Virus record (IMG/VR): IMGVR_UViG_3300042900_000713
Span: 103,886-124,703 of that record
Source: a virus
Lineage: Duplodnaviria > Heunggongvirae > Uroviricota > Caudoviricetes
Length of the DNA stretch: 20,818 nucleotides
Direction: 5' to 3' (one strand)
The notes under the pieces: generated by a model
The model's database searches: none
Told to the model about the DNA's origin: nothing
The model's input: the letters and a program-made list of their open reading frames with translations, nothing else
Shown here: in pieces, positions 1 to 15,616 of the stretch
Position numbering within the stretch: position 1 is the stretch's first letter
Layout of the letters: every line of letters begins with the position of its first letter
Made by a program: the position numbers and the translations under genes

Positions 1-441
1 ACGAAACTTACTTATCATTTCCACTCTATCCGTTTTAATTGAACCAAAAAAAGACCATTTTAAATTTTTATCTTCTTCAAAAACTTTACAACCATTTGTA
101 TAACCAAGAGGTATGTGTAAAGTATTTGAAGTATATTTATATTCTGGATGATGATATTGTCTTAAAAATAATTCACATTCATTTCCAAGTTCATTGTAGA
201 TTGAATTATTATCTTGATAAAATTCATCAGACAGCATAATAATAATCTTTGGTCTAAGTCTTTGTATCGTAGATTTTATATTTGAAAAATTATGAACTCT
301 ACAAGAAAAAGCAAAAACCTCACATTTAGATTGAGTATTTTCTAAATTTGAGGTATTTACATATTCAACATTTCCTTTTGGTAATATTTCATTTAACAAA
401 AAGTCAGTTTCCCATAATCCAGTTTCAAACACATAATTCAT
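1..441 (-). CDS. Partial ORF (3' end beyond window start), putative exostosin/GT47-like glycosyltransferase; missed by ORF track
   Basis: ATG at 441-439 overlaps the TGA of the upstream gene (ATGA). The frame is open for 147 codons to base 1: MNYVFETGLWETDFLLNEIL...IIIMLSDEF...LFLRQYHHP...HIPLGYTNG...KWSFFGSIKTDRVEMISKFR. The IPLGY...WSFxG...R pattern resembles exostosin-like proteins. The ORF itself is well supported; the family call is tentative. Confidence 0.7.
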   Translation of the reverse strand, partial: MNYVFETGLWETDFLLNEILPKGNVEYVNTSNLENTQSKCEVFAFSCRVHNFSNIKSTIQRLRPKIIIMLSDEFYQDNNSIYNELGNECELFLRQYHHPEYKYTSNTLHIPLGYTNGCKVFEEDKNLKWSFFGSIKTDRVEMISKFR

Positions 442-2588
442 AAAGGTCTTGATAAATCAAAATTATTTTGAATTAATTTAATTAACTGTTGATTTTTTGA
501 TACTACTCCAAGACCATAGGTGTGAGTAAAAGTACATTTTGGAAGGTCAATTTCATCAAAAAATCTCTTGACTCCATATTCATTACCAAAGGCACTTTCT
601 ACACAAGTATCGTGTAAAAGAATTACTCCATCATCACTTAAGAACTTACTCCAAGTTTCAAAATCATTCTTAACATCTTCGTATTTGTGACTTCCATCAA
701 TATGAAGAATATTAATCTTCTTATTCCAGGTTTCTGCAATTTCATTAAAATCTCCTTTAATAAAAGTCACATTTTCGTCCATAAAAAGTTTCTCTCTTTT
801 CGTCAGAACATAATCATAATTATGTCCTCCAGTAAGTCCTGTAAAGTCATCACCCATAAAATTATCAATTCCATATACTTGACCAATTCTAGGCATAGCA
901 AAGCAAAAGGTTGAGAACCCCCAATCAACACCTAAATCAACAGTTACTTCTGGTTTTAGATAACTTACAATCCATTCAGCAAATCTACGATGTCCAGTCC
1001 AACAGGTTGATGGAATATCATCAAGATTAGTTAAAAATAAGTTATCAATTGCTTTATGCCTTTCTGCAGATAGTAATGTATTTTGATTAAATGCTGTAGC
1101 AAAGACAGTAATATTTGGATTGTTTAATTTTTTAGAGAGTTCAGTGAGATATGAAAATGCTTGAGAGAGATAAGGTTCTCCTAGATTCATTGCTTCACTT
1201 ACTGCGTGAAAAGCATAGTTTGCTCCTTTTGGAGTATCTTGAAGTTGTATGAGGCAAATACTACACTTAATGAAAGCAATAATTCTAAAAGTATCAAAGT
1301 ATGATTTGGATACATTTAAATATTCTTGACCAAACTCAAGTGCCTTTTGATGATTTCCAACATTAAAATAGTGATTGAAAATAAACCAAATATAATACCA
1401 GTTAGTTTTGTCTTTTTGATATTCTCTTTCACAAATATCAAAGTAAAATAGTTCCTTTGAGACTGAACGATTAATCTTTTTTGTAATCTTAATAGAAGTT
1501 TCTATATGAACTTCATTTTCAAACTCTTCACTAGAAACAAACACAGGCATTTCGTGAACTGCATTTACCCACTTATAATTCTTGGTGCGATGAAATCTTG
1601 TATGAACTTCATTTGATTGTTGTGGTTCTTCTTCACCAATATCATCAAATCTCAAATGTTTAAAGGATGTGAGTTCATTCTCAATCATATTCAATCCTTC
1701 TAAAAATAAGTCTTGAATATCTTCATTAAAATCAATTGAAAATGCCCAGTCAGTTTTTACATAAGAAAGTGCCTGATTTCTTGCTACCGAAAAATCAAAT
1801 TCCTTTTTAGATTGTGAATGCTCATAAACTTCAATTCCAGCGTCTTTAAGTAATGAAACTGTATTATCAGTGCTTCCAGTATCAACTACTACTGTATGAG
1901 AAAATCTTTTTGAGTTTTTAATGAACTTCTCAATATTTCTCTCTTCATTTTTAGCGATAGCATATAAAGTTACATTCATTTTAGTCTCCTCGGGTTTTGG
2001 TTTAAAGTTACACCAGTGAAAAATTCTTTGAGAATAATCATAATTCAAATTCCCATTTAGAAAAAATGTAGTCTTATTTTTAAAATACTCATCAACTGCT
2101 TGAATAACCCCACTCCAACAGAGAGCATAATCATCACCAGCAATTAATCCACCTGGTTTAAGTTTTGGATACCAAGCAGTAATGTCTGCTAAAACATTTT
2201 CATAATCGTGAGATGCATCTATAAAAATAAAGTCAATACTTTCATCATCAAATTGTGATGCAATATCTAAACTTCTTCCTTGAATTGGAGAAACAATATC
2301 ATCAACTTCACATAGAGACATATTTCTTTGAAATATTTCTAATAATGAAGTTGAATTATTTCTTATATCATTTACTATTTCAGTATGCTCTTCACTACCT
2401 TCAAAAGTATCTACGGCAAATACCTTGATATTCTTTTTAGATTCCTTAATAAGTTGCCCTAAACAAGATGCAGACTTACCCATCCAGGAACCAATTTCAA
2501 CAAAAGTTGAATCATCCGAAAACTTATTTACTGCTAATTTATAAACTAAATCAGAATCAAAGAATCCAGGAACTTCTTTCCAATTCAT
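438..2588 (-). CDS. Multidomain enzyme (716 aa): class I SAM methyltransferase (Methyltransf_24-like) - GT2 glycosyltransferase - TPR-like helical region - second Methyltransf_24-like domain
   Basis: N-terminal FVEIGSWMGKS...FIFIDASHDYENV...KLKPGGLIAGDDY. GT2 segment: LYAIAKNEERNI...VVVDTGSTDNTV...FDFSVARNQAL...WAFSIDFNE. Helical region: WYYIWFIFNHYFNVGNHQKALEFG. C-terminal VDLGVDWGFS...ILHIDGSHKYEDVKNDF...GVILLHDT. Start moved from the TTG at 2603 to the ATG at 2588, which forms an ATGA overlap with the upstream stop. Confidence 0.85.
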   Translation of the reverse strand: MNWKEVPGFFDSDLVYKLAVNKFSDDSTFVEIGSWMGKSASCLGQLIKESKKNIKVFAVDTFEGSEEHTEIVNDIRNNSTSLLEIFQRNMSLCEVDDIVSPIQGRSLDIASQFDDESIDFIFIDASHDYENVLADITAWYPKLKPGGLIAGDDYALCWSGVIQAVDEYFKNKTTFFLNGNLNYDYSQRIFHWCNFKPKPEETKMNVTLYAIAKNEERNIEKFIKNSKRFSHTVVVDTGSTDNTVSLLKDAGIEVYEHSQSKKEFDFSVARNQALSYVKTDWAFSIDFNEDIQDLFLEGLNMIENELTSFKHLRFDDIGEEEPQQSNEVHTRFHRTKNYKWVNAVHEMPVFVSSEEFENEVHIETSIKITKKINRSVSKELFYFDICEREYQKDKTNWYYIWFIFNHYFNVGNHQKALEFGQEYLNVSKSYFDTFRIIAFIKCSICLIQLQDTPKGANYAFHAVSEAMNLGEPYLSQAFSYLTELSKKLNNPNITVFATAFNQNTLLSAERHKAIDNLFLTNLDDIPSTCWTGHRRFAEWIVSYLKPEVTVDLGVDWGFSTFCFAMPRIGQVYGIDNFMGDDFTGLTGGHNYDYVLTKREKLFMDENVTFIKGDFNEIAETWNKKINILHIDGSHKYEDVKNDFETWSKFLSDDGVILLHDTCVESAFGNEYGVKRFFDEIDLPKCTFTHTYGLGVVSKNQQLIKLIQNNFDLSRPL
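1986..1991 (-). promoter_or_regulatory. Candidate internal Shine-Dalgarno (GAGGAG) 6 nt upstream of the in-frame ATG at 1979 that opens the GT2 domain
   Basis: Minus strand reads CCC GAG GAG ACT AAA ATG AAT GTA, exactly at the MTase/GT2 domain boundary. Confidence 0.45.
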
Positions 2589-3283
2589 AGATAAAGACTC
2601 CAATCAATACAAGGGGAAATCATTTCTTTTACTGCGTGTGTTGAATAACCAGGAAGACAAGAAATTAAATATCTTCCTTTTTGATTTAAATCTAAAAACT
2701 TTTGATGGTCTGCTGTAGGTTCTACATTTGTAGAATATTGATAATGAATTCTCTTATCTTCTTTTAGTGTTTTGAACTTTGTTGCAAAAGTATTTGTAGT
2801 GGAAGGAACTGGTTTCCAATGAGAACTCTTTGTAATTAAAATCTTACTCATCAAATCCCCATACATTTCTGAATATTTGTCTTTGTGGTCATATAAAGTC
2901 ACATAAGAAACTGGAAGTTCAAATCCTTCTTGTAAAATTGTATCCCAGTTTGGGCGATGAACATAATCATCTTCTAGAAAATAAATGATTGTATCATCAT
3001 CAAAGTTCTTTGAAAGAACATATTCTAAAGTTTTTAGAAAACTTATTGATTCTCCTCCCGCATTAATGATATGAATATTCTCTTCTTGAGAAAGAAAGGT
3101 ATCTTCAATCTTCCCATAATGCTCATCATAAATGAGAGTATAATTAGTGGTTTCTGAATTTAAAGTATTTTTGAAATTCCCAAATACTTTTTCCTTATTC
3201 CACCAATCTGGTCTTTCTTTATTCGGTTGTTCTTGTATCTTTGAATAATAACAATGTCTTAAGAAGACTTCAATTTTTTTCAT
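2585..3283 (-). CDS. Putative GT-A fold glycosyltransferase (232 aa)
   Basis: Hydrophobic strand plus acidic motif IIYFLEDDYVHRPNW; later YVTLYDHKDKY and STTNTFA; C-terminal His (GYSTHA). ATGA overlaps at both ends. Confidence 0.65.
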   Translation of the reverse strand: MKKIEVFLRHCYYSKIQEQPNKERPDWWNKEKVFGNFKNTLNSETTNYTLIYDEHYGKIEDTFLSQEENIHIINAGGESISFLKTLEYVLSKNFDDDTIIYFLEDDYVHRPNWDTILQEGFELPVSYVTLYDHKDKYSEMYGDLMSKILITKSSHWKPVPSTTNTFATKFKTLKEDKRIHYQYSTNVEPTADHQKFLDLNQKGRYLISCLPGYSTHAVKEMISPCIDWSLYL

Positions 3284-4059
3284 ATATTAAATTTATCATA
3301 AAGTTTTACATTTTCTTCTCCAATAATTTCTTCTGGAGAAGGTGAAGTTCTTTGAAGTTTTGGACGAATTTGATGAAGATTATCAATTCCCCAGGCATCA
3401 TCTTTATCTTCGGCACAAGTATTTAGAATGTTGGAAAAATCGTGTTTATGAGATTCTATTTCTAGAAATTCATAAATCTTTTTCACTTCATTCTCTGGAT
3501 TTTCTATAAGATGATTATAATCAACTAAATGAATATTATGTGAATGATGTTGTAATCCATAGACTAGACTTTGATATGGGTCACTTACATAATTTTTCCA
3601 AAGACATTCAATACGATTAGTTGTTGTGATGGGAGTTCCTTCTCGTCTTAAATGAGCATCTACAAAATTATTAGTTCCATTTTTTTCCAAAAGAATAATA
3701 TAAGAAGCAAGAACTTCTGAAATTCTACGATTAGTTGCTATAATTTTTGGTTTTTGATGAATATACTTTTCAATTGAAGAGACATTCTTACACCATCCAC
3801 GATGCTTATCTAATATACAAGGTTTTTCAATATGATTATAAAAATTTGAAAGAATTGAATGATAAGTATTGTATTGAATGTTATCTTTGTCGTATGTATA
3901 TTGAATATCTAATTTAGAAAATCCTTCATCAATCCAACAAAGTAAATCGGCAAGAGGAGATGTTGGAGTTGCTTGAAGTTTGGAATGTTGAGAAAGAATG
4001 GAACCTAATAATGTTGAACCACTTCTGGGAAGACCAGAAAGAAAATAAAGATTTTTCAT
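3280..4059 (-). CDS. PAPS-dependent sulfotransferase (Sulfotransfer_3-like, 259 aa)
   Basis: 5'-PSB loop YFLSGLPRSGSTLLGSIL; ILDKHRGW; KIIATNRRISEVLASY (3'-PB region); LVDYNHLIENPENEVKKIYEFL. Confidence 0.88.
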   Translation of the reverse strand: MKNLYFLSGLPRSGSTLLGSILSQHSKLQATPTSPLADLLCWIDEGFSKLDIQYTYDKDNIQYNTYHSILSNFYNHIEKPCILDKHRGWCKNVSSIEKYIHQKPKIIATNRRISEVLASYIILLEKNGTNNFVDAHLRREGTPITTTNRIECLWKNYVSDPYQSLVYGLQHHSHNIHLVDYNHLIENPENEVKKIYEFLEIESHKHDFSNILNTCAEDKDDAWGIDNLHQIRPKLQRTSPSPEEIIGEENVKLYDKFNI

Positions 4060-4072
4060 TTGTTATGATATT

Positions 4073-5245
4073 TTAGGGGTCAGGTTGATATTGAATTGCT
4101 ATAGTATGATAACCTCCAGCAATAGATTTCCAATTGTTACCACCAAGTAGTGTAGTGACTGGAGTATTTCTTTGTGTAATATCATTGACTCCTAATTGTC
4201 CATAAACATTACGACCCCAAGTCCATAGAGTTCCATCAGTCTTAATTGCTATGGTATGAAAAAATCCACTCGCAATAGATTTCCAATTGTTACCACCAAG
4301 TAGTGTGGTGACTGGAGTGCTTCTATGTGTGGTATCATTTACACCTAATGCTCCATAAGAATTACGACCCCAAGTCCATAGAGTTCCATCAGTCTTAATT
4401 GCTATGGTATGAAAACCTTTACCAGCAATAGATTTCCAATTGGTTCCACCAAGTAGTGTGGTGACTGGAGTGCTTCTAGATGTAGTATTATTTACACCTA
4501 GTTGTCCATTATCATTACTACCCCAATTCCATAAAGTCCCATCAGTATTAAGTGCTATAGTATGATAATATCCACCAGCAATAGATTTCCAATTGGTTCC
4601 ACCAAGTAGTGTGGTGACTGGAGTGCTTCTAGATGTAGTATTATTTACACCTAGTTGTCCATTATCATTATAACCCCAAGACCATAGAGTTCCATCAGTC
4701 TTAAGTGCTATGGTATGATAAAATCCACCAGTAATAGATTTCCAATTGTTACCACCAAGTAGTGTAGTGACTGGAGTGCTTCTTCGTGTAGTATCATTTA
4801 CACCTAGTTGTCCAAAAAGATTAGAACCCCAAGACCATAGAGTTCCATCAGTCTTAAGTGCTATCGTATGATAACCTCCACAAGCAATAGATTTCCAATT
4901 GTTACCACCAAGTAGCGTAGTGACTGGAGTGCTTCTATGTGTATTATCATTTACACCTAGTTGTACACTATTATTACCACCCCAAGACCATAGAGTTTCA
5001 TCAGTTTTAAGTGCTACTGTATGAGATTTTCCACTCGCAATAGATTTCCAATTGTTACCACCAAGTAGCGTAGTGACTGGAGTGCTTCTATATGTGGTAT
5101 CATTTACTCCTAATTGTCCATAAAAATTAAGACCCCAAGACCATAATGCAGGTTGTCTAAAAGTTTCTGCCGGAACAAAGACATCATAAAAATTATAAAC
5201 TACTCCGTTCTCTGTAAAACTATAATTAATATCGTCTGCGGGCAT
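4073..5245 (-). CDS. RCC1/BLIP-II-like 7-repeat beta-propeller protein C (390 aa)
   Basis: Seven 51-aa repeats LWSWGxNxxGQLGVN...TPVTTLLGGxNWKSIAGGxxHTIALKTDGT after a unique 33-aa leader. SD-like AAGGA upstream. Confidence 0.92.
   Translation of the reverse strand: MPADDINYSFTENGVVYNFYDVFVPAETFRQPALWSWGLNFYGQLGVNDTTYRSTPVTTLLGGNNWKSIASGKSHTVALKTDETLWSWGGNNSVQLGVNDNTHRSTPVTTLLGGNNWKSIACGGYHTIALKTDGTLWSWGSNLFGQLGVNDTTRRSTPVTTLLGGNNWKSITGGFYHTIALKTDGTLWSWGYNDNGQLGVNNTTSRSTPVTTLLGGTNWKSIAGGYYHTIALNTDGTLWNWGSNDNGQLGVNNTTSRSTPVTTLLGGTNWKSIAGKGFHTIAIKTDGTLWTWGRNSYGALGVNDTTHRSTPVTTLLGGNNWKSIASGFFHTIAIKTDGTLWTWGRNVYGQLGVNDITQRNTPVTTLLGGNNWKSIAGGYHTIAIQYQPDP
4079..5146 (-). repeat. 7 tandem ~153-bp coding repeats (propeller C)
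   Basis: Periodic CCAGTCACYACRCTACTTGGTGG core on the minus strand; last unit is one codon short. Confidence 0.92.
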
Positions 5246-5255
5246 TTTAGGTTCC

Positions 5256-5609
5256 TTACTGTTTTACAAATATTATAGGAGTATTCATTTTTTGACTCCA
5301 GTTTTCAAAATACTCTACTATATTATTATTTATTGATTCTTTAATTGTTTCAATAATTTTGAGATATTGTCCATTCTCATTATTTTCTACAGAAACTAAA
5401 AATCCACACTTATCTGGACGATATTCTTCGTCTATTAATTCTTGAGACCAGGCACAAAAATAATTCTCACAGGATTTTGGTCTTACTTTATGAACATCAC
5501 ATTTATTCTCACATAAAAATCTACAAGACTTTCCATTTCCAAACTCCCATCCATAAGCATCACCAGTCAACCAAGTGCAACAAACAGTGCAACCATTACA
5601 GTCTTTCAT
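5256..5609 (-). CDS. YkgJ/CxxCxxCC-family cysteine-cluster protein (putative Zn or Fe-S binding, 117 aa)
   Basis: CNGCTVCC...CRFLCENKCDVHKVRPKSCENYFC matches the CxxCxxCC...CxFL...CxxxxxRPxxCxxxxC pattern. Confidence 0.78.
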   Translation of the reverse strand: MKDCNGCTVCCTWLTGDAYGWEFGNGKSCRFLCENKCDVHKVRPKSCENYFCAWSQELIDEEYRPDKCGFLVSVENNENGQYLKIIETIKESINNNIVEYFENWSQKMNTPIIFVKQ

Positions 5610-6292
5610 TCAATATAATCCTCTTCTTTAAAATAATGATTCACTAAATCTATCTCACCATTATGTAGTCTTGAAGAGAAATTTTCATCCCATACTTTCA
5701 AAGATTTTACTTTATATTTTCCACCACTTCCAATCCAGAATTCTCTATCCAGTCTATATCCAGTTTCCAGATACTTATCATTTAGTTTGTTAATATAAGA
5801 AGCATTTGCCCACCAGAAGTTTCCAGGATAATGTCCAATATTATCTACATTTTTTGTAATCTCTCCATTCTCCCAAATCGTATCTCCCAAAATCAACCAA
5901 GTCTGCCCCACACAATCATAAGTATTCAAATATTCTACACATTCTTTCCATCTATCAATCACAAAGTATTCCATCATTAATCTCCAAGATTGTGATTCTA
6001 ATGTATTTTTAGAAGATCCTTTAGTATGAAAATATAGAATCTTATAGTCTGAATTTTCCTTACAAAAATCTCTTAAAGAAATCAAAGTTTCAGTCTCTTC
6101 GTTCCAGTTGGTATTTCTTTTAATTACTGCTTTTTCAGGAACATTAAAAAGTTCTTGGTCTCCATTTATCCCAAAATGAATATAATCTGATTCTTTAATT
6201 AATCCAGAAGCATATAATCTATGCAATTGAGATTGATAAATGAATGCTCCCAATCCTATTTGTGCGATATGATAGAAAATTGCAATCTTCAT
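5606..6292 (-). CDS. Hypothetical protein with YFHTKG / HYPGNFWWA motifs, possibly glycan-modifying (228 aa)
   Basis: Clean ORF with ATGA overlaps at both ends; motifs ILYFHTKG, WRLMMEYF, YDCVG, GNFWWANASYINKL, REFWIG. Function inferred from context only. Confidence 0.75.
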   Translation of the reverse strand: MKIAIFYHIAQIGLGAFIYQSQLHRLYASGLIKESDYIHFGINGDQELFNVPEKAVIKRNTNWNEETETLISLRDFCKENSDYKILYFHTKGSSKNTLESQSWRLMMEYFVIDRWKECVEYLNTYDCVGQTWLILGDTIWENGEITKNVDNIGHYPGNFWWANASYINKLNDKYLETGYRLDREFWIGSGGKYKVKSLKVWDENFSSRLHNGEIDLVNHYFKEEDYIE

Positions 6293-7074
6293 ATTGAATA
6301 ATTTGCGGTCTCCATTCCTTTATTTACATTTAATCCTAGATTTGGAATAGATATAATTCTTTCTTTATTTAAAAATCTATAGAGTGCGTGTTCAATATCA
6401 TTTCCTGTAGTATACTGTATCATTTTTTCCAAATATACGAAACTTCTTTCTAATGCTTCTATCGTCTCATTAAATAACATTTTATCAAAAGACCATAACC
6501 CAGTCACCATCATTCCTTCTGCCTGATATAGATAGGCATAAATATTTTCCAAATTATCAGTATTCATACTTTCTATTTCTTTATTTAAATAACTATAAGT
6601 CTTTGCGATGTAATAGTTTTCTAATAATTTACTTTCATAATCTTTAATTTCAAAATATTCATTTAAAGTATATCTTCCAGTTAATTTAAAAATTCTAGTT
6701 ACATCAGTAAAGAGTTGCTTATCTTTCATTAGATACAAACAGTTTAATATACCTCTGGTTTCTAGTAGTGACTTACCAAAAGTAATGAGTTCTGGTTTTT
6801 GTGAGAAATTTTCATAAAGAGTTTCAATTCCAGGTTCATTATAAAATTCTAAAAATAAATCTGATTTCTCCTGAAGAATTGATTTATATTCACTTGAGAT
6901 TGATTTATAAGAACATTCAAATAAACAAATATAAGCATTTGGAACTTTGGTTCTTATGGATTCAATTGTATCTAAAGTTTGAAAAAATCTTTGCTCTGTA
7001 TTATAACGACTATAATTCTTTTCGGCAAAATGCTCTAGTGAAGAACCAACTAGAAATAAAAATTTATAATCCAT
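6289..7074 (-). CDS. Hypothetical protein (261 aa), possible glycosyltransferase-like
   Basis: Clean ORF overlapping both neighbours; motifs EQRFFQTLDTIESIRTKVP, LFECS, RIFKLTGRYTLN, IEHALY. Function unassigned. Confidence 0.72.
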   Translation of the reverse strand: MDYKFLFLVGSSLEHFAEKNYSRYNTEQRFFQTLDTIESIRTKVPNAYICLFECSYKSISSEYKSILQEKSDLFLEFYNEPGIETLYENFSQKPELITFGKSLLETRGILNCLYLMKDKQLFTDVTRIFKLTGRYTLNEYFEIKDYESKLLENYYIAKTYSYLNKEIESMNTDNLENIYAYLYQAEGMMVTGLWSFDKMLFNETIEALERSFVYLEKMIQYTTGNDIEHALYRFLNKERIISIPNLGLNVNKGMETANYSI

Positions 7075-8404
7075 TTAAAAACTCTCTCAATTGTTGTAAC
7101 GGTGCATCCCAGTTTCTGGGTTTCTTTTGACGAAATAGATGAACATTATCACCATACCACCAAGATTTTCCTGTTGAACTAGTCCAGGCATAATACTCCA
7201 TAATAGGAACAAAGACACATACTTCTTTACCCATAGAAGATGCAATATGAGCGATTGATGTGCAAGAAGTAATCACCAAGTCCATTTGATTTATAATAGA
7301 AAAAGTATCAGCAAATTCTCTATTTTTTGAATGAAATTCTTTGATGTTTCTTTTACAAGAATCTGGAACAGGAGTATCACTCATTTGTAAGGAATAAAGT
7401 GAATATTCAGGTTTGCCTAATACATTAAACAAATTAAAGAAATCTACACTTCTAAAATGTGCCTGTTCAAATCCAGAATCAGAATTCCAGAACATTCCAA
7501 TTTTATACTTTGTGTCTTTTTGAATATAAGAATATTGCTTTTCCTTCTCTGGTAATGGATTAAGATATGGTTCTTGACCTAAATCTTGCACTGAAAGTTG
7601 AAGATAATATGGAAGAGCAAGGGCATAAACCCAACAAGAGTTATCTGGATATTCTGGTTTATCCCAGACACAAACACTTTCAAAACCATTATAATTGAAA
7701 ATATCTGCTAAATGTTTTCTAGTGGTTGCCCATATAGGTCTCATTCCAAGTTCTTTCAGGTTCTTCATAAACCGAATATGCATAATTTCATCACCAGCAC
7801 CACAATTCGCATCAATCACAATTGTCTGATTTGGAGTAATTCTACCATTCCATTTTTGAAAAGGCAATTTAATATTCTTATATGCAGTCTTTTCTGTTTC
7901 TATGAGAAAGTGTTCAAGTGCCTTTGGTAAATCATCTTTATGAAAATAATAACCCGAAAGATTGTGATGAACCTTCTTTTCTATTTCCTCTGGTAAATCG
8001 TTTCTCTTTGAAAGATTAAAAAGTAACTTATGTGCCTTATCTAATTGTCCAAGTTGTGAATATGATGAGGTTTCTTCAAATAAAAGTTCTGGGTCATTTG
8101 GAGTGATTTTCTTACACTTTTCAATTTGAGTAATTGCTTTCTCTGGATAATTAAATTGATTATAAGCATTAATAAGATTTTTAGAAGTAATATATTTTTC
8201 TTCTGTGGTTGTTGCCTTATGAAGTGTCTTTTCTCCATATTCTATTGCTTTTGGAAGATTTTTAAGTTCAAAGAATATTTTTGATATTTCATCATATTGT
8301 GAAAATAGTTCTGCTCTTTTTCCAAATGCTTCTAATAATTCATAAGTAAGTTGTTTTTCATTAAACGAATATAAGGTTTTGGAGACCAATTCAAGAGGAT
8401 TCAT
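7064..8404 (-). CDS. TPR-repeat protein fused to a GT9/heptosyltransferase-like GT-B domain (446 aa)
   Basis: TPR helices (LPKAIEYGEK, YPEKAITQIEKCKKITPNDPEL, YSQLGQLDKAHKLL). GT9-like motifs CGAGDEIMHIRF, KIGMFW, LYSLQ, MDLVITSCTSIAHIASSMGKEV, WWYGDNVHLFRQKKPRNW. Confidence 0.82.
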   Translation of the reverse strand: MNPLELVSKTLYSFNEKQLTYELLEAFGKRAELFSQYDEISKIFFELKNLPKAIEYGEKTLHKATTTEEKYITSKNLINAYNQFNYPEKAITQIEKCKKITPNDPELLFEETSSYSQLGQLDKAHKLLFNLSKRNDLPEEIEKKVHHNLSGYYFHKDDLPKALEHFLIETEKTAYKNIKLPFQKWNGRITPNQTIVIDANCGAGDEIMHIRFMKNLKELGMRPIWATTRKHLADIFNYNGFESVCVWDKPEYPDNSCWVYALALPYYLQLSVQDLGQEPYLNPLPEKEKQYSYIQKDTKYKIGMFWNSDSGFEQAHFRSVDFFNLFNVLGKPEYSLYSLQMSDTPVPDSCKRNIKEFHSKNREFADTFSIINQMDLVITSCTSIAHIASSMGKEVCVFVPIMEYYAWTSSTGKSWWYGDNVHLFRQKKPRNWDAPLQQLREFLNGL

Positions 8405-8426: not shown

Positions 8427-8433
8427 TATTTAG
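8427..8433 (-). promoter_or_regulatory. Possible T4-like late promoter core (CTAAATA) overlapping the stop codon of propeller B; second TAAATA at 8417-8422
   Basis: Minus strand ATC TAA ATA CTTTTAAATATATTATTTTT ATG. Resembles the T4 late consensus TATAAATA. The AT-rich background makes chance matches likely. Confidence 0.3.
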
Positions 8434-9653
8434 ATGTAATCTACAGATTGAATTGCTATTGTATGAAAACCTCCACCAGCAATAGATGTCCAATTGGTTC
8501 CACCAAGTAGTGTGGTGACTGGAGTTCTTCTAGGGGTAAGATCATTTACTCCTAATGCTCCATAACCATTAGCACCCCAAGACCATAAAGTTCCATCAGT
8601 CTTAAGTGCTATTGTATGATAACCTCCACAAGCAATAGATTTCCAATTGGTTCCACCAAGTAGTGTAGTGACTGGAGTGAATTTAGTTGCATTATTATTT
8701 ACACCTAGTTGTCCAAAATCATTATAACCCCAAGACCATAAAGTTCCATCAGTCTTAAGTGCTATGGTATAAGAAAGCCCACCCGCAATAGATTTCCAAT
8801 TGGTTCCACCAAGTAGTGTAGTGACTGGAGTGCTTCTATTTGTAGTATCATTTACTCCTAGTCGTCCATAAGAATTATAACCCCAAGACCATAAAGTTCC
8901 ATCAGTCTTAAGTGCTATTGTATGATAATATCCACCAGCAATAGATTTCCAATTGGTTCCACCAAGTAGTGTAGTGACTGGAGTGCTTCTATGTGTAGTA
9001 TCATTTACTCCTAGTTGTCCAAAATTATTACGACCCCAAGACCATAGAGTTCCATCAGTCTTAAGTGCTATGGTATGATAACCTCCACAAGCAATAGATT
9101 TCCAATTGGTTCCACCAAGTAGTGTGGTGACTGGTGTAAATATACCTGTTCTAGTATCATTTACTCCTAATGCTCCATAATTATTAGCACCCCAAGACCA
9201 TAGAGTTCCATCAGTCTTAAGTGCTATGGTATGATATTGTCCACCCGCAATAGATTTCCAATTGTTACCACCAAGTAGTGTAGTGACTGGAGTTCTTCTA
9301 GTTGTAGGATCATTTGCACCTAATGCTCCATAATCATTATTACCCCAAATCCATAAAGTTCCATCAGTCTTAAGTGCTATGGTATGATATTGTCCACCAT
9401 CAATAGATTTCCAATTTGTTCCACCAAGTAGTGTGGTGACTGGAGTGCTTCTATTTGTAGTATTATTTACTCCTAGTTGTCCATTAACATTATAACCCCA
9501 AGACCATAAGGAAGGAGTAACTGATAATCCAGAATTACCGAGTGAATCTAAAATAGGACCATAGACCTCTAAAAGATAGTCTTTACTGACTAACTTTTTA
9601 CCTAAATCTACACCATCACTGTCTTTAAAATTAGTTGTTGGTTGGTAAGGCAT
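8430..9653 (-). CDS. RCC1/BLIP-II-like 7-repeat beta-propeller protein B (407 aa)
   Basis: Seven repeats of the same 51-aa unit (repeat 3 is 52 aa) after a unique 48-aa leader MPYQPTTNFKDSDGVDLGKKLVSKDY... Confidence 0.92.
   Translation of the reverse strand: MPYQPTTNFKDSDGVDLGKKLVSKDYLLEVYGPILDSLGNSGLSVTPSLWSWGYNVNGQLGVNNTTNRSTPVTTLLGGTNWKSIDGGQYHTIALKTDGTLWIWGNNDYGALGANDPTTRRTPVTTLLGGNNWKSIAGGQYHTIALKTDGTLWSWGANNYGALGVNDTRTGIFTPVTTLLGGTNWKSIACGGYHTIALKTDGTLWSWGRNNFGQLGVNDTTHRSTPVTTLLGGTNWKSIAGGYYHTIALKTDGTLWSWGYNSYGRLGVNDTTNRSTPVTTLLGGTNWKSIAGGLSYTIALKTDGTLWSWGYNDFGQLGVNNNATKFTPVTTLLGGTNWKSIACGGYHTIALKTDGTLWSWGANGYGALGVNDLTPRRTPVTTLLGGTNWTSIAGGGFHTIAIQSVDYI
8436..9509 (-). repeat. 7 tandem ~153-bp coding repeats (propeller B)
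   Basis: Same nucleotide core as in propellers A and C. Confidence 0.92.
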
Positions 9654-10308
9654 TAGGTGTCTCTACTATTTGAGGTTCTCTTAAAATTATATTATAAACT
9701 TCTTCACCAGTGGTACAAGCATCAATTTCTTGAAGTTTTTGATACTCCCAATCAAATGCTTCTTGAACTTTTAAATCAATCTGTGAAATAATATATTCAA
9801 GTTCTGTAGTTGTAATTTGCAACCAAACATCATTACCAAATTTAAAGTTATGAGGTCCTGGAGAAGCAATCAATTTACTCATATAAACTAATCTATTCTC
9901 ACGACTAGTTGAAACTGAAATAGTAGTTCCATTTAGTTCAATTTCAATATTGATATTTTCCTTTTCTTTACGAACTGGGGATACCTGTTGCTTATATTCA
10001 TATTTGATTGTTTCTAATGCCTTATTATAAACTGGATAAGTCATTTCAACTCTTATTGGAATATTATTTTCTTTTATAATTTCCCATTCAAAGTTTCCTA
10101 GACTCTGATATCTTGAATCGTGTTCTGGAATAATTTGAACTACAGAAAGAAGATAAGTATTCTCATCAATTTGTAGAGGTATATTCTCATAATCTCTTGG
10201 AGTAACTTTGCCTTCAACTTCAAGTTCTTCTAGTTCGGCATTAATTAATCGGTAATTATAACCAATTGGTCCTAAAATCAGTTGAGAATCGTGAATAAGT
10301 GAGTACAT
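9631..10308 (-). CDS. DUF4376-like / tail-fibre-assembly-like protein (225 aa)
   Basis: C-terminal half RKEKEN...VSTSRENR...FKFGNDVWLQITTTELEYIISQIDLKVQEAFDWEYQKLQEIDACTTGEEV resembles DUF4376 helical domains that accompany phage fibre genes. Confidence 0.65.
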   Translation of the reverse strand: MYSLIHDSQLILGPIGYNYRLINAELEELEVEGKVTPRDYENIPLQIDENTYLLSVVQIIPEHDSRYQSLGNFEWEIIKENNIPIRVEMTYPVYNKALETIKYEYKQQVSPVRKEKENINIEIELNGTTISVSTSRENRLVYMSKLIASPGPHNFKFGNDVWLQITTTELEYIISQIDLKVQEAFDWEYQKLQEIDACTTGEEVYNIILREPQIVETPNALPTNN

Positions 10309-10321
10309 ATTGTTTTATAAT

Positions 10322-10328
10322 TATTTAG
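10322..10328 (-). promoter_or_regulatory. Possible T4-like late promoter core (CTAAATA) overlapping the stop codon of propeller A
   Basis: Minus strand TCC TAA ATA ATTATAAAACAAT ATG; same arrangement as after propeller B. Confidence 0.3.
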
Positions 10329-11503
10329 GAGAAATCTACTGACTGTCCTGCTGTGAGTGCTACTGTATAATAAGATCCACCAGCAATAGATTTCCAATTG
10401 TTACCACCAAGTAGTGTAGTGACTGGAGTGCTTCTATATGTAGTATCATTCACTCCTAGTTGACCATTACCATTATACCCCCAAGACCATAAAGTTCCAT
10501 CAGTCTTAAGTGCTACCGTATGAACACCTCCACCAGCAATAGATTTCCAATTATTACCACCAAGTAGTGTAGTGACTGGAGTGCTTCTATTTGTAGTATC
10601 ATTTACTCCTAGTTGTACAGAAGTATTAAGACCCCAAGACCATAGAGTTCCATCAGTCTTAAGTGCTATGGTATGATAAGATCCACAATCAATAGATTTC
10701 CAATTGTTACCACCAAGTAGTGTAGTGACTGGAGTGCTTCTAAATGTAGTATCATTTACACCTAATGGTCCAAAATTATTACTACCCCAAGTCCATAGAG
10801 TTCCATCAGTTTTGAGTGCTACCGTATAATAAAGCCCACCAGCAATAGATTTCCAATTGGTTCCACCAAGTAGTGTGGTGACTGGAGTGCTTCTAGTTGT
10901 AGTATCATTTACACCTAATTGTCCATTATTATTATAACCCCAAGTCCATAGAGTTCCATCAGTCTTGAGTGCTACTGTATGATAATATCCACCAGCAATA
11001 GATTTCCAATTGGTTCCACCAAGTAGTGTAGTGACTGGAGTGCTTCTATGTGTAGTATCATTTACACCTAATGCTCCATAAGTATTACGACCCCAAGACC
11101 ATAAAGTTCCATCAGTCTTAAGTGCTATGGTATGAAAACCTCCACCCGCAATAGATTTCCAATTGTTACCACCAAGTAGTGTAGTGACTGGAGTGCTTCT
11201 ATGTGTAGTATCATTTACACCTAATGGTCCAAAATTATTATAACCCCAAGTCCATAGAGTTCCATCAGTTTTGAGTGCTACCGTATGAACACCTCCACCC
11301 GCAATAGATTTCCAATTATTACCACCAAGTAGTGTAGTGACTGGAGTGCTTCTAAATGTAGTATCATTTACACCTAATTGTCCATTATTATTATAACCCC
11401 AAGACCATAAGGTATCGCCGATATATTGGTCTATTAACTTATAATCAGTTATAAAATAATCTTCAATATCTCCAAATTGGTCAGATAAAAATTGATTAGG
11501 CAT
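10325..11503 (-). CDS. RCC1/BLIP-II-like 7-repeat beta-propeller protein A (392 aa)
   Basis: Seven 51-aa repeats after a unique 31-aa leader; ATG directly abuts the fibre stop (TAAATG). Confidence 0.92.
   Translation of the reverse strand: MPNQFLSDQFGDIEDYFITDYKLIDQYIGDTLWSWGYNNNGQLGVNDTTFRSTPVTTLLGGNNWKSIAGGGVHTVALKTDGTLWTWGYNNFGPLGVNDTTHRSTPVTTLLGGNNWKSIAGGGFHTIALKTDGTLWSWGRNTYGALGVNDTTHRSTPVTTLLGGTNWKSIAGGYYHTVALKTDGTLWTWGYNNNGQLGVNDTTTRSTPVTTLLGGTNWKSIAGGLYYTVALKTDGTLWTWGSNNFGPLGVNDTTFRSTPVTTLLGGNNWKSIDCGSYHTIALKTDGTLWSWGLNTSVQLGVNDTTNRSTPVTTLLGGNNWKSIAGGGVHTVALKTDGTLWSWGYNGNGQLGVNDTTYRSTPVTTLLGGNNWKSIAGGSYYTVALTAGQSVDFS
10340..11410 (-). repeat. 7 tandem 153-bp coding repeats (propeller A)
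   Basis: The first two units start at 11410 and 11257 (153-bp period). Confidence 0.92.
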
Positions 11504-12997
11504 TTAGATTCTCCTCTCTAATTCTTCAATACGAAGTTGTTGTTCTTTAATTGCCTCAATCAATACTCCTATAAGATTTCCATAAGATACTGATTTTGTT
11601 CCATCATCATTAGTCTCAACAACTTCTGGAATAATTTTTTCAATATCTTGAGCAATTACACCAATTGAAGGTTTATCATTATGCTTCCAATCAAATCTTA
11701 CTCCATTAAGTTGTTTAGTGAGTTCAAGTGCATTCTTAATAGGTTCAATATTAGTTTTTCTAGATACATCTGAAAGTGAAGTGAACTGTGTTGCTGATAC
11801 GGTTCCTGTTGATGTAGTAAAGGTAAGTGCGGTAGATGAGGTATAAGCAGTTGAATATGTTCCAACAGTTGTAGCACTCATTGTTGGATATAAAGTTCCA
11901 GATGGAGTATTATTGAGTGTTGCGCCACCACTAAATGTTGTCCATCCAATTCCAGTTACAGTTGATTGAAGAACCTGACCTGTAGTTCCTGATGAATTTG
12001 TTGAGTCATAAATTGACCTTCCAATTCCCACATCACCAATTATAGAAAGAGTTCTTGTTGGATTTGTGGTTCCTACTCCAATATTACCACCATAAGCACC
12101 TAAAGAAATTACTCCACTTGCATCTACATCAATACTTGGAATACCTGAAATATCATTTACAGAGAAGAGGCTTCCAGTTGATAGATTATTTGTAATTGAG
12201 AATAATTGACCCGCACTACCTTCCCAAGATAAGGTGCCGGAGTTTAGAGTATCATAAGGAACAATATCAATTATAGTACCAATTCCAAGTGTACCAGTTG
12301 AAGGATTGAATTGGAGTTTTGTTGAAGAAACGTGAGCAGTTTTGGCAATTCCTGATGTGACCGAAAGAATTCCAACATACCAGTTTGAATTTGTTGTGGT
12401 GTTATCAAATACAGTAAATCCACCATCACTAGAACCTTGAACTCCTTGAACTCCTTGAGCACCTTGGACTCCTTGGGCACCCTGAACTCCTTGAGCACCT
12501 TGGACTCCTTGGGCACCCTGAACTCCTTGAGCACCTTGGACTCCTTGAGCACCTTGGACTCCTTGGGCACCCTGAACTCCTTGAGCACCTACAATTCCTT
12601 GAGCACCCTGGACTCCCTGAAGTGCAGCAGTTGCAATTGGTATCCAACTGACTCCAATACCAGTGGAAATTAATACAGAACTTGCAGTACCTACTTGATT
12701 ATTACTATCCTTTAATCCCCCAGCAATTTTGATATAACTATCAGTCTGCCCTAATGATACTGTTTTATTAGTAAGACCTCGTATTTCTCCACTCTGTTCA
12801 AAAACAATATCTACGTTATTAACACCATCACCAATAAAAATATCACGACTTGTATCACCAAGAGTTAAATCTCCACCCGGATTTGCGATGTTGAGATTTC
12901 CATTATCATCCAACTGAATAGTCGCACTACTAATGCCGGTATTTCCTTGAAAATCTACTAGACCCGATGCGGGTGTTATGATTACATCTTTTGGCAT
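11504..12997 (-). CDS. Collagen-like tail fibre with C-terminal peptidase S74 intramolecular chaperone (497 aa)
   Basis: About 20 G-X-Q triplets; IGVGTTNP motif; S74 signature TSLSDVSRKTNIEPIKNAL...GVIAQDIEKIIPEVV...SVSYGNLIGVLIEAIKEQQLRIEEL. Start moved from the TTG at 13018 to the ATG at 12997, 1 nt after the upstream stop and preceded by GGAGGGGGAG. Confidence 0.88.
   Translation of the reverse strand: MPKDVIITPASGLVDFQGNTGISSATIQLDDNGNLNIANPGGDLTLGDTSRDIFIGDGVNNVDIVFEQSGEIRGLTNKTVSLGQTDSYIKIAGGLKDSNNQVGTASSVLISTGIGVSWIPIATAALQGVQGAQGIVGAQGVQGAQGVQGAQGVQGAQGVQGAQGVQGAQGVQGAQGVQGAQGVQGVQGSSDGGFTVFDNTTTNSNWYVGILSVTSGIAKTAHVSSTKLQFNPSTGTLGIGTIIDIVPYDTLNSGTLSWEGSAGQLFSITNNLSTGSLFSVNDISGIPSIDVDASGVISLGAYGGNIGVGTTNPTRTLSIIGDVGIGRSIYDSTNSSGTTGQVLQSTVTGIGWTTFSGGATLNNTPSGTLYPTMSATTVGTYSTAYTSSTALTFTTSTGTVSATQFTSLSDVSRKTNIEPIKNALELTKQLNGVRFDWKHNDKPSIGVIAQDIEKIIPEVVETNDDGTKSVSYGNLIGVLIEAIKEQQLRIEELERRI
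12434..12620 (-). repeat. 9-bp-period (Gly-X-Gln)n collagen-like repeat in the short fibre
   Basis: GVQGAQ iterations. Confidence 0.92.
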
Positions 12998-12998
12998 T

Positions 12999-15458: not shown

Positions 15459-15616
15459 TATGGTGTTGTGCTAAGGTATGGATAATTAACTTCTGGTTCT
15501 GGAATACTGATTTCAAGTTCAATCATATTCTCATCTTCTCTTATGTAGTTTATTACACAAGGTTCATCCGCAGTTGCTTCAAGTGTATTCTTATTAATTG
15601 TTATTTTGGTAATCAT
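15458..15616 (-). CDS. Small acidic hypothetical protein (52 aa), not in ORF track
   Basis: [52 protein letters not shown]. It exactly fills the gap, with TAATG overlaps at both its start (15616) and its stop (15458-15460). Confidence 0.8.
   Translation of the reverse strand: MITKITINKNTLEATADEPCVINYIREDENMIELEISIPEPEVNYPYLSTTP

What the first reader, a model, noticed from the sequence alone, without database searches (positions are those of the whole stretch)
1..8404. Glycosylation-methylation-sulfation enzyme cluster co-transcribed with tail fibres: candidate virion-decorating system
Seen: TPR-GT9, two unknown proteins, a CxxCxxCC protein, a sulfotransferase, a GT-A protein, MT-GT2-TPR-MT and an exostosin-like ORF all follow the fibre genes on the same strand. 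Most are linked by ATGA overlaps and I see no terminator. None shows an obvious signal peptide or transmembrane segment, and two GTs carry TPR regions. Known: GT2-TPR enzymes typically glycosylate proteins (flagellin and peptide glycosyltransferases), and GT/MTase/sulfotransferase mixes are typical of flagellar glycosylation islands. Inference: the phage may build a methylated and sulfated glycan on its own Ser/Thr-rich fibres or propellers, for shielding or adsorption. The alternative is host surface remodelling.
Basis: partly seen in the sequence, partly recalled or inferred. Interest (0 to 1): 0.72.

Follow-up and report, generated by a model that had tools for sequence, protein, structure and literature searches.

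The report
Cyanophage fibre-linked glycosylation and sulfation genes
A virus of freshwater cyanobacteria keeps a tight run of soluble sugar-, methyl- and sulfate-adding enzymes among its tail-fibre and propeller genes; the lead enzymes resemble bacterial enzymes that glycosylate proteins, so they probably decorate the virus particle, but this has not been shown chemically.

Summary
The window is the last 20.8 kb of a 124.7-kb fragment (CheckV completeness 58%) of a T4-like cyanophage related to Synechococcus phage S-SRM01. All genes lie on the minus strand, with gaps of 25 nt or less and no terminator between them.

Confirmed:
- TPR + GT9-fold glycosyltransferase (AF2 pLDDT 94; Z 17.6 to a GT9 structure, 15.6 to TibC).
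- A GT-A protein with an invariant EDD motif.
- A sulfotransferase.
- A methyltransferase-GT2-helical-methyltransferase protein whose GT2 part is closest to GmaR and SunS.
- A CxxCxxCC protein.
- An RXYLT1-like ORF.

New here:
- The block RCC1-x-RCC1-TPR/GT9-...-RCC1-sulfotransferase-GT is syntenic in 51 viral contigs.
- Its core recurs at 28-39% identity in 50 more distant viral loci, one cultured Synechococcus elongatus phage and one marine virus.
- The CxxCxxCC protein is fused to the TPR-GT9 enzyme in about 600-aa relatives.

Best reading (about 0.5): cytoplasmic O-glycosylation of phage fibre or propeller proteins, then methylation and sulfation. Host-envelope remodelling is not excluded (about 0.27). 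The scan has met this kind of cluster in at least 7 other genomes. It is a new variant of a known kind.

The parts
15616..20817 (-). Giant collagen-like fibre protein. Its 5' end is cut by the contig end; 1733 aa are visible.
   Evidence: Pfam Collagen E 1.4e-76. 171 triplets, mostly G-[A/V]-Q, in 4 runs.
15459..15617 (-). 51-aa ORF that fills the only apparent intergenic gap, with TAATG overlaps at both ends.
   Evidence: Read directly from the sequence.
12999..15458 (-). 819-aa protein with no family match, rich in Ser/Thr (19%). Presumed fibre component.
   Evidence: No Pfam or PHROG match; composition.
11504..13018 (-). Tail fibre with a collagen stretch and a C-terminal S74 intramolecular chaperone domain.
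   Evidence: Pfam Peptidase_S74 3.6e-15 and Collagen 2.1e-9. The S-SRM01 homologue is annotated as a tail fiber protein.
10325..11503 (-). RCC1-type seven-blade propeller (a).
   Evidence: Pfam WD40_RLD 1.7e-137 and RCC1 1.6e-75.
9631..10308 (-). 225-aa protein. Relatives carry DUF4376, which from memory is common in tail-fibre assembly proteins.
   Evidence: 5 of 11 family members hit DUF4376, best E 3e-6. Kept between two RCC1 genes in relatives.
8430..9653 (-). RCC1-type propeller (b), directly upstream of the TPR-GT9 gene.
   Evidence: Pfam RCC1 2.9e-80. In some relatives it is replaced by proteins of 1159-2559 aa.
7064..8404 (-). Soluble glycosyltransferase: TPR domain (residues 1-175) plus GT9-fold GT-B domain (residues 187-446). 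Proposed initiating protein O-glycosyltransferase.
   Evidence: AF2 pLDDT 94.4. VIA Z 17.6, 16.4, 15.8 and 15.6 to GT9, WaaF, WaaC and TibC. Foldseek whole-chain top matches are SPINDLY and OGT. G202, G204 and D205 are invariant.
6289..7074 (-). 261-aa protein of a phage-only family, function unknown. Weak WavE/GT lead only.
   Evidence: No Pfam match. 523 homologues, none annotated. Atlas lead 0.90 to a cluster where 18% of members carry WavE.
5606..6292 (-). 228-aa protein, function unknown. Its family carries PF27674, which is absent from the local library.
   Evidence: No PDB match by sequence.
5256..5609 (-). 117-aa Cys-rich CxxCxxCC protein, a probable metal-binding partner of the TPR-GT9 enzyme.
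   Evidence: Fused to the N-terminus of TPR-GT9 in about 600-aa relatives (A8; BLASTP 2e-24 and 1e-25). phrog_9155.
4073..5245 (-). RCC1-type propeller (c), lying inside the enzyme run.
   Evidence: Pfam WD40_RLD 4e-98. Replaced by an 1165-aa protein with repeated RCC1-like domains (18 RCC1 repeats) in some relatives.
3280..4059 (-). PAPS-type sulfotransferase.
   Evidence: Pfam Sulfotransfer_3 2.3e-14 and Sulfotransfer_1 2.4e-14. PRSGST loop at the N-terminus. 80% identical to the S-SRM01 sulfotransferase.
2585..3283 (-). GT-A fold glycosyltransferase with an invariant E-D-D motif.
   Evidence: AF2 pLDDT 87.4. Foldseek and VIA matches to GnT-I, LH3 GT domain, POMGnT1 and TarP. Invariant columns.
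438..2603 (-). Multidomain enzyme: sugar-type O-methyltransferase, GT2 (GmaR/SunS-like) with a helical TPR-like tail, and a second methyltransferase. The likely true start is the ATG at 2588.
   Evidence: Pfam Methyltransf_24 1.3e-46, TylF 2.8e-11, GT2 1.9e-7. PDB: GmaR 7e-9 and SunS 4.5e-7 over 246 residues.
1..441 (-). N-terminal 147 aa of a 259-aa RXYLT1/exostosin-like protein. The gene ends 339 nt beyond the window start.
   Evidence: RXYLT1_C E 1.2e-4, below the cut-off. 8 of 8 relatives match, best 1.1e-6.

Best explanation
The block is a phage-encoded cytoplasmic kit for modifying proteins, and it acts on the phage's own fibre or propeller proteins before assembly.

Proposed steps:
1. 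The soluble TPR-GT9 enzyme, probably working with the CxxCxxCC metal-binding protein, binds a phage structural protein through its TPR groove. The neighbouring RCC1 propellers are the most likely target. It transfers a first sugar to Ser or Thr.
2. The GT-A protein, the GT2 domain of the 721-aa enzyme, the RXYLT1-like protein and possibly the two unknown proteins extend the glycan.
3. The two Methyltransf_24 domains O-methylate sugars and the sulfotransferase adds sulfate from host PAPS.

The decorated fibres would then carry a capped, partly anionic glycan that alters adsorption, stability or recognition.

Shown: the gene content, the folds, the solubility, the tight packing and the conserved synteny.
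Inferred: the acceptor, the order of steps, the sugar identity, late timing and the biological benefit.
For: (1) No enzyme has a transmembrane-like segment. The block holds no polymerase, flippase or lipid-carrier enzyme.

(2) TPR+GT-B in one soluble chain is the architecture of FlmG, where the TPR domain binds flagellin (PMC7591256), and of OGT and SPINDLY. The catalytic domain has the GT9 fold, which TibC, a protein O-heptosyltransferase, also has (Z 15.6, rmsd 3.0, 238 residues aligned).

(3) The nearest solved relatives of the GT2 domain are GmaR (flagellin O-GlcNAc transferase) and SunS (peptide S-glycosyltransferase). The SunS alignment includes the helical tail.

(4) The gene order RCC1-x-RCC1-TPR/GT9-...-RCC1-sulfotransferase-GT is kept in S-SRM01 and 51 viral contigs and in a marine virus at 27-38% identity. 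Phage BUCT-ZZ01 has the minimal row of tail fibre, RCC1 protein and GT9-type protein. This resembles the TibC-TibA arrangement of an enzyme gene next to its adhesin substrate gene.

(5) In 50 more distant viral loci the TPR-GT9 gene lies within 10 kb of a sulfotransferase in 36, of RCC1 in 32 and of collagen/S74 fibre genes in 31.

(6) Relatives add 2OG-Fe(II) oxygenases right after TPR-GT9, as well as FkbM methyltransferases and an acyltransferase.

(7) Early-type promoter boxes occur only at genome 40-88 kb and are absent from the block. There is no terminator between the genes.

(8) Precedent: mycobacteriophage virions are glycosylated by phage glycosyltransferases (Freeman 2023, as cited in PMC12619734).
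Against: - No chemical or proteomic evidence exists for any member of this phage group; the S-SRM01 paper reports none.
- GT9 is best known for LPS heptosyltransferases (WaaC, WaaF), which score as well as TibC, so the fold does not identify the acceptor.
- GT25-type genes ('LPS biosynthesis' family) occur in relatives.
- Cyanobacterial exopolysaccharides are often sulfated (my own knowledge), which fits a host-glycan target for the sulfotransferase.
- The RCC1 proteins have no recognisable virion-attachment domain, so their presence in the particle is itself assumed.
- Synteny with receptor-binding genes is also what a receptor-masking system would show.
- No strong late promoter was found at the head of the block within the window.
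Confidence: 0.5

Rival explanations
1. Host envelope remodelling. The enzymes act at the cytoplasmic face on host LPS-core, O-antigen or exopolysaccharide precursors. This changes or masks the receptor, so that superinfecting phages or released progeny do not bind infected cells and debris.
For: - GT9 is the LPS heptosyltransferase family, and WaaF and WaaC score Z 16.4 and 15.8.
- GT25 and WavE-like leads occur in the block or its relatives.
- This is the usual reading of cyanophage glycosyltransferases (PMC12801897).
- Sulfated polysaccharides are common in cyanobacteria (my own knowledge).
- Co-location with receptor-binding genes would also be expected for a receptor-masking module.
Against: - No membrane-associated, carrier-lipid, flippase or polymerase genes are present, and no nucleotide-sugar or PAPS genes occur in the 125-kb fragment (the fragment is only 58% complete).
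- TPR fusions and GmaR/SunS-type GT2 enzymes are typical of protein or peptide acceptors.
- 2OG oxygenases sit next to the glycosyltransferase in relatives.
- Marine Synechococcus LPS is reported to lack heptose (my own knowledge, not checked here).
- A lytic phage gains little from remodelling the envelope late in infection.
Confidence: 0.27
2. The enzymes modify a target that is neither virion nor envelope. Candidates are a host cytoplasmic protein (takeover by glycosylation, as with effector glycosyltransferases), a small secreted glycopeptide, or a small metabolite.
For: - SunS-type enzymes glycosylate ribosomal peptides.
- A Cys-rich 117-aa protein lies in the block.
- TylF-like methyltransferases also tailor antibiotics.
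Against: - The Cys-rich protein is fused to the TPR-GT9 enzyme in relatives, so it looks like an enzyme domain and not a substrate.
- No precursor peptide, transporter or immunity gene is seen.
- The conserved partners are large propeller and fibre proteins.
Confidence: 0.08
3. DNA hypermodification. The glycosyl-, methyl- and oxygenase activities decorate phage DNA bases to evade restriction.
For: - Phage glycosyltransferases and 2OG oxygenases are known to hypermodify DNA (Pyle 2024, cited in PMC12619734).
- PHROGs label the Methyltransf_24 family as 'DNA methyltransferase'.
Against: - The block lies in the fibre region, not with the replication genes.
- The oxygenase matches are to 2OG-FeII_Oxy_3/4/5 and DUF6445, not TET/JBP.
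- TPR domains, RCC1 propellers and a sulfotransferase have no known role in DNA modification.
- Methyltransf_24 also matches the sugar O-methyltransferase family TylF, and weakly RMNT_CmcI.
Confidence: 0.03

Closest known systems
FlmG of Caulobacter crescentus (flagellin O-glycosyltransferase; PMC7591256), and OGT/SPINDLY
   Same: A soluble cytoplasmic enzyme with an N-terminal TPR domain and a C-terminal GT-B domain in one chain. In FlmG the TPR domain binds the protein substrate. Foldseek ranks SPINDLY and OGT first for the whole chain.
   Different: The catalytic domain here fits GT9 structures (Z 15.6-17.6, rmsd about 3) far better than GT41 (Z 12.9 at rmsd 16.9). I could not test sequence homology to FlmG because no FlmG sequence was on hand. 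There are no flagellins here; the neighbouring genes encode phage propellers and fibres.
TibC/TibA and Aah/AIDA-I (BAHT autotransporter heptosyltransferases, GT9-like)
   Same: GT9-type fold (TibC Z 15.6, rmsd 3.0, 238 residues). The enzyme gene is adjacent to the gene of a large surface adhesin-type protein. A Cys-rich metal-binding element is associated with the enzyme; here it is a separate CxxCxxCC protein that is fused in relatives.
   Different: TibC has no TPR domain and carries its iron finger in cis. TibC is a dodecamer acting on beta-helix passenger domains. Here the candidate acceptors are RCC1 propellers, and the donor sugar is unknown.
GmaR (Listeria flagellin O-GlcNAc transferase) and SunS (sublancin S-glycosyltransferase)
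   Same: A GT2 (GT-A) domain followed by a helical TPR-like domain. These are the best solved matches for the GT2 part of the 721-aa protein (E 7e-9 and 4.5e-7).
   Different: Here the GT2 domain is flanked by two methyltransferase domains. The NCBIfam SunS equivalog model is not matched by the 721-aa protein; only a downstream paralogue matches it, far below the cut-off. The acceptor is unknown.
Mycobacteriophage virion glycosylation (Freeman et al. 2023, as cited in PMC12619734 and PMC12801897)
   Same: Phage-encoded glycosyltransferases placed with the structural genes decorate virion proteins.
   Different: There the targets are capsid and tail-tube C-termini in actinophages. Here the genes sit with fibres and propellers in T4-like cyanophages, the enzyme set is much larger, and it includes methyltransferases, a sulfotransferase and (in relatives) 2OG oxygenases. 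Nothing has been shown experimentally here.
Chlorovirus PBCV-1 A064R and giant-virus fibril glycosylation (my own knowledge; Mimivirus R699 and R655 appear among the fold matches)
   Same: Virus-encoded multidomain enzymes that combine glycosyltransferase and sugar methyltransferase domains. They build a capped glycan on a virion protein in the cytoplasm, independently of host secretory glycosylation.
   Different: Those are eukaryotic viruses with different enzyme families, and no sulfotransferase or TPR-GT9 enzyme is known there.

Membership tests
CAZy GT9 / Pfam PF01075 (heptosyltransferase-type GT-B) | GT-B fold superposable on solved GT9 enzymes | tested here: met
   Residues 187-446 against 3tov: Z 17.6, rmsd 3.0, 244 residues aligned. 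WaaF 16.4, WaaC 15.8. Model pLDDT 94.4.
CAZy GT9 / Pfam PF01075 (heptosyltransferase-type GT-B) | N-terminal Gly-x-Gly-Asp loop with the catalytic Asp (WaaC Asp13, from memory) | tested here: inconclusive
   G202, G204 and D205 are invariant in 47 homologues and follow the first beta-strand of the domain. Structural equivalence to WaaC Asp13 was not checked residue by residue.
CAZy GT9 / Pfam PF01075 (heptosyltransferase-type GT-B) | Match to the family HMM above the curated cut-off | tested here: not met
   The window protein has no PF01075 match even at E <= 10. Only 5 of 47 homologues match, best E 9e-5. It is therefore GT9-like by fold and a distant clade by sequence.
CAZy GT9 / Pfam PF01075 (heptosyltransferase-type GT-B) | ADP-heptose as donor | not testable with these tools
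   Needs an enzyme assay. No heptose-pathway search was made, and the 58%-complete fragment could not show absence in any case.
TPR-fused protein O-glycosyltransferases (FlmG, OGT, SPINDLY type) | N-terminal TPR superhelix and C-terminal GT-B domain in one soluble chain | tested here: met
   Ten helices forming five TPR pairs in residues 3-174, then the GT-B domain. No hydrophobic segment. SPINDLY and OGT top the Foldseek list.
TPR-fused protein O-glycosyltransferases (FlmG, OGT, SPINDLY type) | GT41 catalytic domain, or sequence homology to FlmG | tested here: inconclusive
   OGT aligns only at rmsd 16.9 (Z 12.9), while GT9 enzymes align at rmsd 3. No FlmG sequence was available to compare. 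Earlier scan notes claim FlmG as the closest relative; I did not verify this.
TPR-fused protein O-glycosyltransferases (FlmG, OGT, SPINDLY type) | The TPR domain binds the protein acceptor | not testable with these tools
   Needs two-hybrid or pull-down assays, or complex prediction.
BAHT protein heptosyltransferases (TibC/Aah) | GT9-like fold with the gene next to its adhesin substrate gene | tested here: met
   TibC Z 15.6. The gene lies directly downstream of RCC1b here and of RCC1-bearing proteins in BUCT-ZZ01, in L058 and in 32 of 50 distant loci.
BAHT protein heptosyltransferases (TibC/Aah) | Cys4 iron finger within the enzyme, and a dodecameric assembly | tested here: inconclusive
   Only one invariant Cys (C381) lies in the enzyme. 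A separate CxxCxxCC protein is fused to it in relatives. The oligomeric state cannot be tested here.
SunS/GmaR-type GT2 protein or peptide glycosyltransferases | GT-A domain followed by a helical TPR-like domain, homologous to SunS or GmaR | tested here: met
   Profile against PDB: GmaR 7.3e-9; SunS 4.5e-7 over residues 8-253 of the profile, including the helical tail.
SunS/GmaR-type GT2 protein or peptide glycosyltransferases | NCBIfam equivalog TIGR04195 (SunS family) above its cut-off | tested here: not met
   The 721-aa protein has no match. The downstream 940-aa paralogue scores 19.4 bits against a cut-off of 350.
PAPS-dependent sulfotransferases (PF13469 / PF00685) | Family HMM above the cut-off, and the 5'-phosphosulfate-binding loop | tested here: met
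   54.6 and 53.8 bits against cut-offs of 27 and 22. A PRSGST loop lies at residues 11-16. The acceptor class is undetermined; the only PDB matches are weak ones to the TPST1 and CurM loop.
GT-A glycosyltransferases (protein at 2585-3283) | GT-A Rossmann-like fold with a DxD-type metal motif | tested here: met
   pLDDT 87.4. Z 13.5 to GnT-I and 12.8 to LH3. Foldseek E 5e-6. E104-D105-D106 are invariant after strand 99-104. No Pfam GT model matches.
CxxCxxCC / YkgJ family (PF03692) | N-terminal CxxCxxCC motif and a match to the family HMM | tested here: inconclusive
   The motif is present. The HMM match is E 1.2. 3 of 18 relatives reach E <= 0.01, best 0.002.
Phage virion glycosylation systems (mycobacteriophage type) | Glycan chemically shown on virion proteins and dependent on phage glycosyltransferases | not testable with these tools
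   No proteomic or glycan data exist for S-SRM01 or its relatives.

The most novel reading that the evidence does not exclude
A deeply conserved phage kit installs a sulfated, methylated O-glycan on hypervariable RCC1 propeller receptor-binding proteins and fibres. The kit is TPR-GT9 with its CxxCxxCC metal domain and a sulfotransferase, often with a 2OG oxygenase, plus lineage-specific glycosyltransferases and methyltransferases. The glycan would then be part of how T4-like cyanophages recognise hosts or evade capture. This would be the first sulfated phage glycoprotein. It would also give a role to many of the 'LPS' and oxygenase genes of cyanophages.
Probability: 0.3. Interest if true: 0.8.

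Novelty: new variant of a known kind. Interest (0 to 1): 0.6.

Why it matters
Cyanophage glycosyltransferase, methyltransferase, 2OG-oxygenase and sulfotransferase genes are usually filed as 'host cell-wall modification' or left unexplained. Suppose instead that this conserved block decorates the phage's own host-binding proteins.

- Virion glycosylation, so far shown for mycobacteriophages and giant viruses, would extend to abundant aquatic T4-like phages.
- Sulfation and methylation would be added to the chemistry known for phage particles.
- A glycan layer would become a factor in host range and in phage decay in lakes and oceans.

A cultured relative (S-SRM01, with its Synechococcus host) makes the idea directly testable.

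Tried and rejected
- Collagen-type modification (Pro/Lys hydroxylation followed by glycosylation, or BclA-like Thr glycosylation in the triplets): rejected for the collagen runs, because the 171 triplets are almost all G-[A/V]-Q with 5 Pro, no Lys and 5 Thr.
- Paralogy among the unknown proteins and the GT2 domain: hhalign found nothing (probability below 1%). The alignments are shallow (Neff 1.6-2), so this says little.
- Megablast of the region against GenBank phages: no match.
- Exact TATAAATA late promoters: only 2 in the window, both inside genes and no more than chance. Only 7 in the whole fragment and none in the core structural module, so this motif does not mark late genes here.
- Nucleotide-sugar and PAPS supply genes (Epimerase, NTP_transferase, APS_kinase): none in the fragment. 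The fragment is 58% complete, so absence is not shown.
- PF27674 could not be looked up.
- The search for related loci in genome contigs with alignment A1 failed for lack of conserved stretches.

Full report
**Where the window lies.** The window is the last 20.8 kb of a single 124,703-bp linear viral contig with 35% G+C. CheckV estimates its completeness at 58%. The contig carries T4-type portal, tail tube, sheath, terminase and baseplate genes. Its closest cultured relative is the freshwater Kyanoviridae phage Synechococcus phage S-SRM01, whose sulfotransferase is 80% identical. The window is therefore part of an uncultured T4-like cyanophage.

**Anatomy.** Every gene in the window is on the minus strand. 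In order of transcription:
- a collagen-like giant fibre, cut by the contig end;
- a 51-aa ORF;
- an 819-aa Ser/Thr-rich protein;
- a collagen + S74-chaperone fibre;
- RCC1 propeller a;
- a 225-aa protein whose relatives carry DUF4376;
- RCC1 propeller b;
- the TPR-GT9 enzyme;
- two proteins of unknown function (261 and 228 aa);
- the 117-aa CxxCxxCC protein;
- RCC1 propeller c;
- the sulfotransferase;
- a GT-A protein;
- the 721-aa methyltransferase-GT2-helical-methyltransferase enzyme;
- the start of a 259-aa RXYLT1-like protein.

All junctions are overlaps or gaps of 25 nt or less. No terminator-like site separates genes on the coding strand.

The cluster continues beyond the window with DUF6165, three ConA-like lectin proteins, a 2OG-Fe(II) oxygenase, a 940-aa MT-GT2-GT2-TPR-DUF6445 enzyme and a GT2-MT enzyme. 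It ends at a helicase gene.

**Testing the domain calls.**
- *TPR-GT9.* The 446-aa protein had only TPR matches by HMM. An alignment of 47 homologues gave a confident model (pLDDT 94.4, pTM 0.91). Residues 1-175 form five TPR pairs. Residues 187-446 superpose on GT9 enzymes: 3tov Z 17.6, WaaF 16.4, WaaC 15.8 and TibC 15.6, all at rmsd about 3 Å. As a whole chain it is ranked nearest to SPINDLY and OGT. G202, G204 and D205 are invariant.
- *Size of the TPR-GT9 family.* The family is very large, with 23,324 representatives at E <= 1e-3. It includes proteins of 1300-3100 aa with 3-8 modules, one of them from an Oscillatoriales cyanobacterium.
- *GT-A.* The 232-aa protein folds as GT-A (pLDDT 87.4; Z 13.5 to GnT-I and 12.8 to the LH3 glycosyltransferase domain). 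It has an invariant E-D-D motif.
- *GT2.* The GT2 domain of the 721-aa enzyme is closest to GmaR and SunS, and the SunS alignment covers the helical tail.
- *Methyltransferases.* Its methyltransferase domains match Methyltransf_24 and TylF; the second also gives a weak match to the sugar O-methyltransferase family RMNT_CmcI.
- *Sulfotransferase.* It passes both Pfam cut-offs.
- *Unknowns.* The two unknown proteins stay unknown.

**Comparative evidence.**
- The order RCC1-x-RCC1-TPR/GT9-(2OG oxygenase)-u261-u228-CxxCxxCC-RCC1-sulfotransferase-GT-A-MT/GT2/MT-DUF6165 is kept in S-SRM01 and in 51 IMG/VR contigs at 50-89% identity. Accessory genes are slotted in: 2OG oxygenases, GT2, GT25, GT17, FkbM methyltransferases and a hexapeptide acyltransferase.
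- A marine single-cell virus keeps RCC1-x-RCC1-...-TPR/GT9-2OG oxygenase-x-RCC1-sulfotransferase-GT25 at only 27-38% identity.
- Phage BUCT-ZZ01, which infects Synechococcus elongatus, has the minimal row of tail fibre, RCC1-bearing protein and GT9-type protein.
- In 50 further viral loci, whose TPR-GT9 is 28-39% identical to the window's, a sulfotransferase lies within 10 kb in 36, RCC1 in 32, collagen/S74 fibres in 31 and the CxxCxxCC domain in 29. The two unknown proteins and the GT-A protein are almost confined to the S-SRM01-like clade.
- The CxxCxxCC protein is fused to the N-terminus of TPR-GT9 in five clusters of about 600-aa proteins. This argues that the two work as one enzyme.

**Mechanism.** The best-supported reading is cytoplasmic glycosylation of phage fibre or propeller proteins. 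The TPR-GT9/CxxCxxCC enzyme would start the glycan, GT-A-type enzymes would extend it, and O-methylation and sulfation would cap it. The arguments are:
- all enzymes are soluble and there is no lipid-carrier machinery;
- the lead enzymes have protein- or peptide-type architectures;
- the coupling to RCC1 and fibre genes is conserved at great depth;
- oxygenases sit next to the glycosyltransferase in relatives;
- early-type promoter boxes are absent from the block.

I put this at about 0.5. Host-envelope remodelling stays plausible at about 0.27: the GT9 fold is shared with LPS enzymes, GT25 genes occur in relatives, and a receptor-masking module would also travel with receptor-binding genes. 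Modification of another protein, peptide or metabolite (about 0.08) and of DNA (about 0.03) are less likely.

**Limits.**
- Nothing shows that the RCC1 proteins are in the virion.
- Expression timing is inferred from context.
- The acceptor, the sugar and the order of steps are all inferred.
- The collagen triplets themselves offer no hydroxylation or Thr sites.

**Novelty.** Virion glycosylation by phage enzymes is known for mycobacteriophages, and TPR-linked protein glycosyltransferases are known from flagellar systems. The S-SRM01 paper does not discuss this cluster, and the cyanophage literature reads such genes as host-wall modification.

This scan has already met the same kind of cluster in at least seven other phage genomes, and in the stretch adjoining this window. 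Those follow-ups reached similar readings. I arrived at the FlmG and TibC comparisons from my own fold and literature results before reading them. I could not verify their claim of direct FlmG homology.

I class this as a new variant of a known kind, with interest 0.6.

Noticed in passing
window 4073-5245, 8430-9653, 10325-11503: The 21 blades of the three RCC1 genes repeat with a 153-nt period and share identical stretches of 11 nt or more at the same phase. This suggests concerted evolution or cassette exchange between blades and genes.
   Followed up: partly
window 5256-5609; proteins P0191, P0143, P0183, P0249, P0253: The CxxCxxCC protein is a separate gene here. It forms the N-terminal domain of TPR-GT9 proteins of about 600 aa elsewhere (37-44% identity, E 1e-25 and 2e-24), a gene-fusion link between the two.
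   Followed up: yes
proteins P0122-P0132 and others: Giant proteins of 1300-3100 aa carry 3-8 tandem TPR-GT9 modules. One is named as coming from an Oscillatoriales cyanobacterium MAG. Their function is unknown to me.
   Followed up: partly
window 15459-15617: A 51-aa ORF is wedged between the giant fibre gene and the 819-aa gene, with TAATG stop-start overlaps at both ends. It removes the only apparent intergenic gap.
   Followed up: no
window 15616-20817 and 11504-13018: The collagen-like runs are almost pure G-[A/V]-Q (154 of 171 Y positions are Gln; 5 Pro). This is a proline-free, Gln-rich collagen type.
   Followed up: partly
window 13190-13197 and 134-141 (- strand): The only two exact TATAAATA boxes lie inside coding sequence. 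One is 172 nt upstream of the collagen/S74 fibre gene start; the other is inside the RXYLT1-like gene. They could be internal late promoters or chance matches.
   Followed up: no
window 5606-6292: Relatives of the 228-aa protein are pre-annotated with Pfam PF27674, a family newer than the local Pfam copy. Its name could not be retrieved.
   Followed up: partly
genome 40,097-88,457 (outside the window): Repeated boxes such as AACTGGCACA (15 copies) and GAGTCAACACCG (9 copies) are confined to the small-gene early region and are absent from the fibre/enzyme block.
   Followed up: partly
L031:2273-9952, L013:2600-6079, L031:14320-17817: In some relatives the single RCC1 propeller genes are replaced by proteins of 1159-2559 aa. 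The one scanned (1165 aa) holds 18 RCC1 repeats in several RCC1-like domains.
   Followed up: partly
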